From a virus (Duplodnaviria; Caudoviricetes): DNA of 64,000 nucleotides. Numbering within the stretch: the stretch's first letter is position 1; every line of letters starts with the position of its first letter. Under the pieces are notes generated by a model. That model worked only from the letters and a program-made list of their open reading frames with translations, was not told the DNA's origin and made no database searches. Both the position numbers and the translations under genes were made by a program. Shown here piece after piece: positions 18,252-18,537 of this stretch. The stretch is taken from positions 32,001 to 96,000 of the IMG/VR virus record IMGVR_UViG_3300021399_000005, one strand, 5' to 3'.

Positions 18252-18537
18252 ATGGGAGTAGTTTCAATGGTAAAACGATGGTCTTCAACCTGAAGGGTTA
18301 CTTCGGAAATTGGTGCCTTATAGTGGGGACATTGTAAGTGAAGGTGATGATATCGGTGAAACCTAAGTCTTTTAGATATGGTAATACCGAGGGAACGAAA
18401 GGCCCGTAGAGACTAGATAATCACCCGACTAGAACAGTCGAAGATATAGTCCAGCCCACAAACATAAAAATGGCGATGAAAATCGTAGATGGGAAGCAAC
18501 ACCATATTTGGGGGTTCGAATCCCTCCTCCCATGCCA
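18252..18537 (+). tRNA. tRNA-Trp(UCA), opal-decoding; exons 18252-18285 and 18497-18537
   Basis: Acceptor ATGGGAG/CTCCCAT, G73, CCA; D-arm GTTT/AAAC; anticodon stem ATGGT/ACCAT with spliced loop CT-TCA-AC; T-loop TTCGAAT; 75 nt spliced. Confidence 0.9.
18286..18496 (+). ncRNA. Group I self-splicing intron in tRNA anticodon (211 nt, no ORF)
   Basis: 5' exon ends in U, intron ends in G; P3 GGTGAT/ATCACC, P4 ATCGG../..CCGAG, R GTAGAGACTA, P8 CGACT/AGTCG, S AAGATATAGTCC. Confidence 0.9.

What the first reader, a model, noticed from the sequence alone, without database searches (positions are those of the whole stretch)
18252..18537. Opal-decoding tRNA-Trp(UCA) whose anticodon is split by a group I intron: a possible splicing-gated genetic-code switch
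Seen: a full tRNA (A1-U72, G73, CCA, short variable loop) interrupted after U34 by a 211-nt ORF-less intron with intact P3/P4/P7/P8 and terminal G; ligation gives loop CU-UCA-AC. Known: A1-U72/G73 are bacterial tRNA-Trp identity elements; the cyanobacterial tRNA-Leu(UAA) intron sits at the same position; late-gene stop recoding is known in gut phages. Inference: the tRNA needed to translate nearly all virion and lysis genes here only exists after splicing, so splicing could time the code-11 to code-4 transition. Standard tRNA scans may miss such genes, which could explain recoded phages that appear to lack a suppressor tRNA. I am not aware of this combination being described, but cannot check.
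Basis: partly seen in the sequence, partly recalled or inferred. Interest (0 to 1): 0.95.

Follow-up and report, generated by a model that had tools for sequence, protein, structure and literature searches.

The report
Intron-split opal suppressor tRNA in phage
A 167-kb phage that reads the stop codon TGA as tryptophan in its late genes carries its only TGA-reading tRNA gene cut in two by a small self-splicing-type (group I) intron, which hides the gene from standard tRNA finders; the intron looks like a mobile passenger, not a timing switch.

Summary
Removing window 18286-18496 (211 nt, after U34, ending in G) joins 18252-18285 to 18497-18537. The product is a clean 75-nt cloverleaf with anticodon UCA, A1-U72, G73 and an encoded CCA.

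The insert is a complete group I intron of the small IC3 type, homologous to tRNA-Leu(UAA) introns. Covariation supports it strongly: 31 of 53 pairs change on both sides.

Default ARAGORN, the Rfam tRNA model and Rfam gathering thresholds all miss the gene. It is the only UCA tRNA in the complete 166.8-kb genome. The late genes hold 204 in-frame TGA codons.

The "splicing-gated code switch" idea is not supported:
- The genome holds three more group I introns that carry homing-endonuclease genes.
- A sister intron in another tRNA(UCA) carries a PD-(D/E)XK endonuclease gene.
- A TGA-recoded relative (DnaE 52% identical) has an intronless suppressor.
- The tRNA sits alone at the 3' end of the late-gene strand, so transcription could set the timing.

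However, no intronless allele of this particular tRNA was found, and splicing kinetics remain untested.

I found no paper describing intron-split suppressor tRNAs in phages. This scan has already noted the same thing on other DNA (at least 37 genomes). The finding helps explain the "missing" suppressor tRNAs of recoded phages.

The parts
18252..18285 (+). 5' exon of tRNA(UCA): acceptor 5' strand, D-arm, anticodon stem 5' strand, C32 U33 U34
18286..18496 (+). 211-nt ORF-less group I intron (IC3-like), from C+1 to omega-G at 18496
   Evidence: Rfam Intron_gpI 40 bits; covariation on 13 homologues; MFE fold recovers P2-P6, P8 and P9
18497..18537 (+). 3' exon: C35 A36 A37 C38, anticodon stem 3' strand, 4-nt variable loop, T-arm, acceptor 3' strand, G73, encoded CCA (18535-18537)
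18310..18315 (+). Internal guide sequence UUGGUG. UUG pairs with intron CAA (P1) or 3' exon CAA (P10). G18313 forms a wobble with U34. There is a U x U33 mismatch. G18315 pairs with C32.
   Evidence: By alignment with Leu (UUUGAG), Ile (UAUGAG) and other UCA (UUGGAG) introns. The +1/guide pair covaries AU:5, CG:5; the -1 pair is U.G in 11 of 13.
18290..18306 (+). Hairpin inserted in the P1 loop (CUGAAG/CUUCGG). Its UGAAG can alternatively pair with exon CUUCA and bury the splice site.
   Evidence: the alternative pairing is read from the sequence only
18317..18338 (+). P2 hairpin, 9 bp, with GNRA loop GGGA
   Evidence: 8 of 9 pairs change on both sides
18343..18348 (+). P3 5' strand (pairs with 18420-18425; pseudoknot with P7)
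   Evidence: 6 of 6 pairs change on both sides
18353..18390 (+). P4 (18353-57 with 18386-90) enclosing P5 (18362-81), which holds the CCUAAG...UAUGG 11-nt GAAA-tetraloop receptor motif
   Evidence: receptor motif read from the sequence
18392..18405 (+). P6 with GAAA loop
   Evidence: 3 of 3 pairs change on both sides
18411..18451 (+). P7 (GACUA 18411-15 with UAGUC 18447-51, invariant), enclosing the P3 3' strand (18420-25) and P8 (18426-40)
18455..18493 (+). Outer 3' helix (18455-59 with 18488-93) enclosing the P9 hairpin 18473-86 with GAAA loop
   Evidence: P9: 5 of 5 pairs change on both sides
18199..18226 (+). Sigma-70-like promoter match (TTTACA-16-TATCAT) 26 nt upstream of the tRNA; function unproven
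   Evidence: 14 such sites in the region against 7 +/- 3 expected
18228..18245 (+). GC hairpin (GCGCGC-ATAGTA-GCGCGC) between the upstream gene's stop codon and the tRNA
   Evidence: a different hairpin occupies the same place in L077/L078
18582..18621 (.). Bidirectional intrinsic terminator between the tRNA and the convergent early-gene block
1..18220 (+). Distal part of the late (tail, endolysin) gene block that needs TGA=Trp

Best explanation
This is the phage's opal-suppressor tRNA gene, a tRNA-Trp-like tRNA with anticodon UCA, interrupted between U34 and C35 by a small ORF-less group I intron of the IC3 type. Inferred pathway: the precursor is transcribed from the late-gene strand. The ribozyme folds, with guide UUGGUG pairing with CUU|CAA. 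Exogenous G attacks after U34 and omega-G 18496 directs exon ligation, creating the loop CUUCAAC. After end processing, host TrpRS charges the tRNA with Trp (the phage has no TrpRS of its own). The tRNA then reads UGA in the late genes. The intron is most likely a tolerated mobile element of a lineage that specialises in tRNA(UCA) genes. That target (CUU|CAA) differs by one base from the classical tRNA-Leu(UAA) target (CUU|AAA). The intron is probably kept splicing-competent only because the tRNA is essential. It is probably not a purpose-built timer. Its practical effect is that the suppressor is invisible to routine annotation.
For: Shown here:
- The exact cloverleaf appears after splicing.
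- The group I core matches Rfam and shows strong covariation, and the guide-sequence pair covaries with the second anticodon base.
- This is the only UCA tRNA among 26 or 27 tRNAs of a complete genome with direct terminal repeats.
- Late block: 204 TGA against 75 TGG. First early block: 9 TGA against 109 TGG.
- Window TGA codons align to TGG (4), TGA (3) and TAT (1) in relative L011.
- No phage TrpRS or release factor was found.

Evidence for a passenger intron:
- Three further group I introns in the genome carry HNH or GIY-YIG genes.
- UCA-tRNA introns form a clade (support 0.99) that includes L068, whose intron carries a PD-(D/E)XK endonuclease (PF11645, E 1e-18).
- Intron identity stays near 75% whether the exons are 97% identical (L011) or 64% identical (L066, at the syntenic position).
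- Relative G007/L129 (DnaE 52% identical) has an intronless tRNA(UCA), no group I hits, and a neighbouring gene with 13 in-frame TGA.
- The L071 tRNA type has an intronless counterpart at 90% identity.
- The tRNA is the only one on the late strand, at its 3' end, flanked by a promoter-like site and a terminator.
Against: - All sampled alleles of this exact tRNA carry the intron: the window, L010, L009/L011 and L077/L078. No intronless allele was found with either half-gene or with the spliced anticodon arm. The three closest relatives by DnaE are also split. Long-term retention is therefore possible.
- P1 is weak. It has a U x U mismatch at -2, shared by three lineages, and a competing hairpin that puts U34 opposite A. 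Splicing could therefore be slow or conditional.
- The Rfam score is below the gathering threshold (40 against 50 bits).
- Splicing, Trp charging and UGA decoding were not observed.
- The D-loop starts with C where A14 is expected.
Confidence: 0.78

Rival explanations
1. Splicing-gated code switch. The precursor is made early but splices slowly or conditionally, so the mature UCA tRNA, and with it translation of late genes, appears only at a set time.
For: This is the only UCA tRNA in the genome. A sigma-70-like site lies directly upstream and could allow early transcription by host polymerase. P1 is weak, with a U x U mismatch and a competing hairpin over the splice site. The intron is present in every sampled allele of this tRNA and in the three nearest relatives.
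Against: A recoded relative has an intronless suppressor. Sister introns carry a homing endonuclease. The genome is generally infested with group I introns. The competing hairpin is not conserved outside the close family (L060, L073). The gene lies on the late strand, so transcription alone can explain timing. Small IC3 introns of this type generally self-splice quickly (general knowledge, not tested here).
Confidence: 0.1
2. Dead gene. The intron no longer splices, and UGA is read by something else: the aberrant phage tRNA-Trp(CCA), a host tRNA, or a host that itself uses code 4.
For: P1 has a mismatch at -2. The Rfam score is below the gathering threshold. A strange tRNA-Trp(CCA) with an abnormal D-arm exists at C1:105961-106032.
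Against: Exons are 97% conserved between genomes whose DnaE is 67% identical, with a compensatory 2:71 change. The intron helices keep pairing through many double changes. This means both tRNA and ribozyme are under selection. Early genes avoid TGA as Trp (9 against 109 TGG), which argues against a code-4 host.
Confidence: 0.05
3. The intron is kept for another benefit. Examples: shielding the anticodon loop of the precursor from host anticodon nucleases, or keeping the suppressor silent in a host or state where read-through would be harmful.
For: Only the apparent retention in this lineage and the abundance of split UCA tRNAs: 12 of 29 loci from one intron-core scan.
Against: No direct evidence. 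The abundance is equally explained by homing into a conserved target. Intronless suppressors are common (56 in one scan).
Confidence: 0.05
4. The tRNA inserts something other than Trp (Sec, Gly or Cys).
For: ARAGORN labels it 'SeC', but only because of the anticodon.
Against: It has no long variable arm and no 8- or 9-bp acceptor stem as tRNA-Sec has. It has A1-U72 and G73, which are bacterial TrpRS identity elements (established knowledge). TGA alternates with TGG in orthologues.
Confidence: 0.02

Closest known systems
Group I intron of cyanobacterial/plastid tRNA-Leu(UAA) (subgroup IC3; 'Leu.3Ug', CUU/a...g/AAAA in Williams 2020, bioRxiv 10.1101/2020.01.27.920355)
   Same: Same insertion point (between 34 and 35, after CUU). 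Same small IC3 architecture. U-1.G wobble and omega-G. The guide sequence pairs with the first 3' exon bases. It aligns with phage Leu(UAA) introns (44-59% identity, shared core).
   Different: The host gene is a stop-codon suppressor in a phage, not a sense tRNA of a cell. The guide is UUG-GUG instead of UUU-GAG, matching CAA and carrying a U x U mismatch. The introns form their own clade. I could not see whether a UCA type is among Williams's 21 types, because the table is an image.
Phage-encoded opal suppressor tRNA(UCA) of TGA-recoded phages (crAss-like, Agate, Jade; Yutin 2021 PMC7886860; Borges 2021 preprint 10.1101/2021.08.26.457843)
   Same: Late-gene TGA-to-Trp recoding with a phage tRNA(UCA). 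No phage TrpRS. Early genes in standard code.
   Different: The gene here is split, so it is not found by the tools those studies used. They report detectable TGA suppressors in only 35% of code-4 phages and suspected noncanonical tRNAs.
'Enigmatic' tRNA introns of Lak megaphages (Devoto 2019, PMC6784885)
   Same: Introns in phage tRNA genes of alternatively coded phages, with presence/absence polymorphism between genomes.
   Different: Those were predicted with eukaryote-mode tRNAscan and were not classed as group I in the passages I read; none of those passages reports one in the suppressor. Here the intron is a demonstrable IC3 ribozyme inside the suppressor's anticodon.
I-Ssp6803I-type PD-(D/E)XK homing endonuclease introns in bacterial tRNA-fMet (from memory, not tested)
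   Same: The sister intron in L068 carries a PF11645 PD-(D/E)XK endonuclease inside a tRNA anticodon-loop intron.
   Different: The window's intron has no ORF.

Membership tests
Group I intron (IC3, tRNA anticodon-loop type) | Conserved catalytic core P3-P4-P6-P7-P8 with the P3/P7 pseudoknot | tested here: met
   Rfam alignment; 53 pairs, 87.9% of cells paired, 31 pairs with double changes, 0 of 500 shuffles
Group I intron (IC3, tRNA anticodon-loop type) | Rfam Intron_gpI gathering score (50 bits) | tested here: not met
   40 bits, E 7.5e-9. Williams 2020 accepted 18-20 bits or more for tRNA introns because the Rfam seed has no bacterial members.
Group I intron (IC3, tRNA anticodon-loop type) | U at -1 in a G.U wobble in P1 | tested here: met
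   U34.G18313; U.G in 11 of 13 homologues. P1 is weak (U x U at -2).
Group I intron (IC3, tRNA anticodon-loop type) | Terminal omega-G and P10 pairing with the 3' exon | tested here: met
   G18496; UUG pairs with CAA; the pair covaries with anticodon base 35
Group I intron (IC3, tRNA anticodon-loop type) | Self-splicing with guanosine and Mg2+ | not testable with these tools
Bacterial-type tRNA-Trp-derived opal suppressor | Canonical cloverleaf with anticodon UCA after exon ligation | tested here: met
   ARAGORN and RNAfold on the spliced sequence
Bacterial-type tRNA-Trp-derived opal suppressor | TrpRS identity elements G73 and A1-U72 | tested here: met
   Read from the sequence; the role of these elements is established knowledge; charging not tested
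Bacterial-type tRNA-Trp-derived opal suppressor | UGA positions correspond to Trp | tested here: inconclusive
   8 comparable codons in L011: TGG 4, TGA 3, TAT 1. The PDB alignment was uninformative.
Stage-specific TGA-recoded phage | In-frame TGA concentrated in structural and lysis genes; replication genes in code 11 | tested here: met
'Agate' clade of Borges et al. | Terminase phylogeny placing it in that clade | not tested
   No reference sequences to hand. Genome size, TGA recoding and an endonuclease gene with TGA inside an early gene resemble the published description.
Regulatory (conditional) splicing switch | The intron is required for, or co-occurs with, the recoding system in relatives | tested here: not met
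   Recoded relative L129/G007 has an intronless suppressor and no group I hits. 56 intronless UCA tRNAs were found in one scan.
Regulatory (conditional) splicing switch | Splicing is delayed or induced during infection | not testable with these tools
   -

The most novel reading that the evidence does not exclude
In this phage lineage the intron is retained, and its weakened P1 (U x U mismatch plus a competing hairpin over the splice site) makes splicing slow or condition-dependent. Maturation of the only UGA-reading tRNA would then delay or sharpen the switch from code 11 to code 4.
Probability: 0.08. Interest if true: 0.9.

Novelty: new variant of a known kind. Interest (0 to 1): 0.6.

Why it matters
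Two large surveys of recoded phages could not find a suppressor tRNA in most recoded genomes. Borges et al. found one in only 35% of code-4 phages, and Yutin et al. reported the same mismatch for zeta crAss-like phages. Both guessed at undetectable noncanonical tRNAs or host factors.

A suppressor whose anticodon is assembled only by group I splicing gives a concrete, checkable explanation for part of that gap. In one narrow intron-core scan of IMG/VR, 12 of 29 loci were split tRNA(UCA) genes. Adding an exon-aware group I step to tRNA annotation should recover them and improve code prediction and gene calling.

It also shows a group I intron lineage adapted to a stop-codon-reading tRNA. It provides a natural system in which ribozyme activity is a prerequisite for a genetic-code change, whether or not that dependence is used for regulation.

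Tried and rejected
- Default ARAGORN and Rfam at gathering thresholds on the window found nothing. This is itself informative.
- ARAGORN's own intron placement (35/36, 192 nt) was rejected. It needs a 94-nt tRNA with a false long arm and a G.U-rich stem, whereas the U34|C35 junction gives a perfect 5-bp stem.
- blastn of the locus against GenBank phages found no match.
- Exact scans for an intronless allele found only intron-bearing copies or chance hits. The queries were the spliced anticodon arm, the 3' half, the 5' half, and the L060-type arm.
- The search for related loci with the upstream 399-aa protein returned only one near-identical contig.
- A PDB alignment of the endolysin was used to test TGA=Trp. 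The only aligned TGA codon fell on a variable position, so the test was uninformative.
- P1 formed by CUUCA/UGAAG (U34 opposite A) was considered as the true P1 and rejected. Homologous Leu, Ile and other UCA introns place the guide at UUGGUG/UUGGAG with a G.U wobble.
- Origin from tRNA-Leu(UAA) by anticodon mutation was rejected because of the short variable loop, G73 and A1-U72.
- The + strand ORF 18489-19034 was rejected as a gene. It is antisense to an ORF with PHROG hits and overlaps the tRNA and the terminator.
- No covariance model was built. nhmmer with the alignment profile sufficed.

Full report
**1. What is there**

The window is bases 32001-96000 of a complete 166,804-bp virus record with direct terminal repeats.

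At 18252-18537 on the + strand, ARAGORN finds nothing by default. Rfam at gathering thresholds also finds nothing. With intron search on, ARAGORN calls a tRNA(tca) at exactly these coordinates.

ARAGORN's intron placement is wrong. A systematic search for junctions with a pyrimidine at -1, a G at the intron end, a 5-bp anticodon stem and a 7-nt loop gives two candidates. One is U34|C35 with a 211-nt intron (18286-18496). The other is ARAGORN's inferior alternative.

The spliced 75-nt product folds as a textbook cloverleaf in both ARAGORN and RNAfold (-19.9 kcal/mol). Its features are:
- A1-U72, G73 and an encoded CCA;
- anticodon stem AUGGU/ACCAU and loop CUUCAAC;
- a 4-nt variable loop.

CAAC occurs both at the start of the intron and at the start of the 3' exon. 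The mature sequence therefore does not depend on the exact junction within that repeat.

**2. The intron is a real IC3-type group I intron**

Rfam Intron_gpI matches 18290-18467 at 40 bits. The E-value is 7.5e-9 for the local search and 6e-10 for the whole genome. The score is below the 50-bit gathering threshold.

I collected homologues from IMG/VR in two ways. One used the tRNA's own 3' half. The other used a pattern of the conserved core. I then aligned 13 phage tRNA introns.

I derived a full P1-P9 model on the window sequence and projected it onto the alignment. The result:
- 87.9% of cells are paired;
- 31 of 53 pairs change on both sides;
- 0 of 500 shuffles reach the observed values;
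- versions slid by 1-3 columns give only 30-41% pairing.

P2, P3, P6, P8 and P9 are carried almost entirely by compensatory changes. P7 is invariant. RNAalifold and the single-sequence MFE fold recover the same helices independently. The exception is the P3/P7 pseudoknot: RNAalifold recovers P7 but not P3, and the single-sequence fold recovers P3 but not P7.

The tertiary-contact set typical of IC3 introns is visible in the sequence:
- L2 is GGGA;
- L9 is GAAA;
- P5 contains the CCUAAG...UAUGG receptor motif.

The internal guide is UUGGUG (18310-18315). In Leu(UAA) introns the same place reads UUUGAG. In Ile(UAU) introns it reads UAUGAG. In other UCA introns it reads UUGGAG. The first three bases therefore track the first three bases of the 3' exon (AAA, AUA, CAA). 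The pair between intron +1 and the guide is AU in 5 sequences and CG in 5. U-1 pairs with G in 11 of 13.

In the window's sub-lineage the middle base of the exon-binding triplet is U rather than A. This gives a U x U33 mismatch. In addition, the UGAAG of the hairpin inserted in the P1 loop could pair with exon CUUCA. That alternative is not conserved in L060 or L073.

**3. Context: a two-code phage**

Reading TGA as a stop shatters the + strand genes. Reading it as Trp restores long genes with 7-18 in-frame TGA each. These genes encode tail fibre, tail and endolysin proteins.

The - strand genes include DnaE-type polymerase, gyrase A and B, NAD-ligase, RecJ, DnaB and NrdD. They are open in code 11.

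Genome-wide counts:
- The + strand block 2-50,220 has 204 TGA against 75 TGG, and 26 of its 30 genes have in-frame TGA.
- The first 30 genes of the - strand block have 9 TGA against 109 TGG.

In the relative L011, window TGA codons align to TGG (4), TGA (3) and TAT (1).

The phage has 24 ordinary tRNAs, all on the - strand at 103.5-114.1 kb. None has anticodon UCA. With relaxed thresholds, an aberrant tRNA-Trp(CCA) appears at 105,961-106,032. There is no TrpRS and no release factor.

The split tRNA(UCA) is the only tRNA on the late strand. It lies 31 nt after the last late gene. It is preceded by a GC hairpin and a sigma-70-like match. It is followed by a strong bidirectional terminator that faces the convergent early block.

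The nearest cultured relatives by DnaE are Enterococcus and Bacillus SPbeta-like phages at about 40% identity. This suggests a Bacillota host.

**4. Passenger or gate?**

Evidence for a mobile passenger:

(a) The genome has at least three other group I introns with endonuclease genes.
- tRNA-Leu(UAA) at C1:110146-111002 has a 771-nt intron at the classical CUU|AAAA site with an HNH-type ORF.
- nrdD is cut into three exons by two inserts with GIY-YIG genes. One insert gives a weak Intron_gpI hit.

(b) In a tree of the intron cores, the introns of tRNA(UCA) genes from the window, L009-L011, L077/78, L073, L060/66, L068, L071 and L072 form one clade with support 0.99. A second, independent UCA lineage (L069/L074) groups with introns outside tRNA genes.

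(c) L068, a clade member, carries a PD-(D/E)XK endonuclease gene in its P1 loop (PF11645, E 1e-18).

(d) Intron and exon divergence are uncoupled. Against L011 the exons are 97% identical and the intron 75%. Against L066 the exons are 64% identical and the intron 74%. L066 sits at the syntenic position in a genome with the same DnaE identity of 67%.

(e) G007/L129, a relative with 52% DnaE identity, has an intronless tRNA(UCA). It has no Intron_gpI hits in its 140.7-kb record (about 95% complete). A neighbouring gene has 13 in-frame TGA. The L071-type tRNA also has an intronless counterpart at 90% identity.

Evidence that keeps the gate idea alive:
- No intronless allele of this exact tRNA was found in IMG/VR or in the metagenome collection.
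- The three nearest relatives are all split.
- P1 is weak.
- A host-type promoter match lies upstream.

None of this shows delayed splicing. The compensatory evolution of the ribozyme is expected in any case, because the tRNA is essential. I put the passenger reading at about 0.78 and the gate at about 0.1.

**5. Comparison with what is known, and novelty**

[quoted passage not shown] There are four classical IC3 types, extended to 21 by Williams 2020. Phage suppressor tRNAs and late-gene recoding are also known. Lak phages have tRNA introns described as "enigmatic".

Six full-text searches found no paper describing a suppressor tRNA split by a group I intron.

Both Borges et al. and Yutin et al. 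state that many recoded phages lack a detectable suppressor. Both suspect undetectable tRNAs.

Within my scans:
- 12 of the 29 loci hit by one intron-core pattern are split tRNA(UCA) genes.
- One pattern for intronless Trp-like suppressors returned 56 tRNA(UCA) genes.

Split genes are therefore a sizeable minority.

Earlier notes of this scan report the same phenomenon in at least 37 other genomes, with the same verdict. I used them as leads only: the Williams paper, the decoy arm, the weak P1 and the odd tRNA-Trp. I re-tested what I cite.

**6. Verdict**

This is a new variant of a known kind, with moderate-to-high interest (0.6). Its main value is as an explanation for hidden suppressor tRNAs and as a natural dependence of a code change on ribozyme activity. 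The regulatory claim remains speculation.

Noticed in passing
G000:C1:110146-111002 (- strand; outside the window; in L008): A second intron-split tRNA in the same genome: tRNA-Leu(UAA) with a 771-nt group I intron at the classical CUU|AAAA site. It carries a 170-aa HNH-type ORF (Pfam HNH_3/HNH just below cut-off). Default ARAGORN misses it too.
   Followed up: partly
window 21870-26219 (- strand): Anaerobic ribonucleotide reductase nrdD is split into three exons (25242-26219, 23949-24317, 21870-22883) by two inserts with GIY-YIG endonuclease genes (24453-25175 and 23004-23768). The second has 3 in-frame TGA although it sits in an early gene, as Borges et al. described for Agate phages. A weak Intron_gpI hit lies at window 22888-23050.
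   Followed up: partly
G000:C1:105961-106032 (- strand; outside the window): Aberrant tRNA-Trp(CCA) with normal anticodon loop CUCCAAA, A1-U72 and G73, but an abnormal D-arm region containing a 6-bp hairpin. It is found only with relaxed ARAGORN thresholds. It could be a second, weaker UGA reader.
   Followed up: partly
L071:1612-2086, L072:11839-12314, L069:3517-3983, L074:2406-2872: Other phage tRNA(UCA) genes split by the same kind of intron carry an extra hairpin in the variable region whose loop copies the tRNA-Trp anticodon loop (CUCCAAC / CUCCAAA / UUCCAAC). The window's tRNA lacks this arm.
   Followed up: partly
L054:6650-7125 (170-kb DTR genome G002): A split tRNA(UCA) with a 213-nt intron that even ARAGORN -i misses. 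After manual splicing it is a 75-nt tRNA with A1-U72 and G73.
   Followed up: partly
window 18489-19034 (+ strand): A 181-aa code-11 ORF starts inside the intron, runs through the 3' exon and the terminator, and is antisense to a gene with PHROG hits (18598-19197). It is probably spurious, but a gene caller could annotate it over the tRNA.
   Followed up: partly
L059:1940-2223, L065:523-809: Phage tRNA-Ile(UAU) genes split at CUU|AUAA by related group I introns whose guide reads UAUGAG.
   Followed up: no
window 18265: The first D-loop nucleotide after a 4-bp D-stem is C where the near-universal A14 is expected. It is invariant in all relatives.
   Followed up: no
L061, L067, L070, L076 (around the core-pattern match): Closely related IC3-like introns lie outside tRNA genes, downstream of AT-rich ORF ends. 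They are apparently within protein-coding genes of other phages.
   Followed up: no
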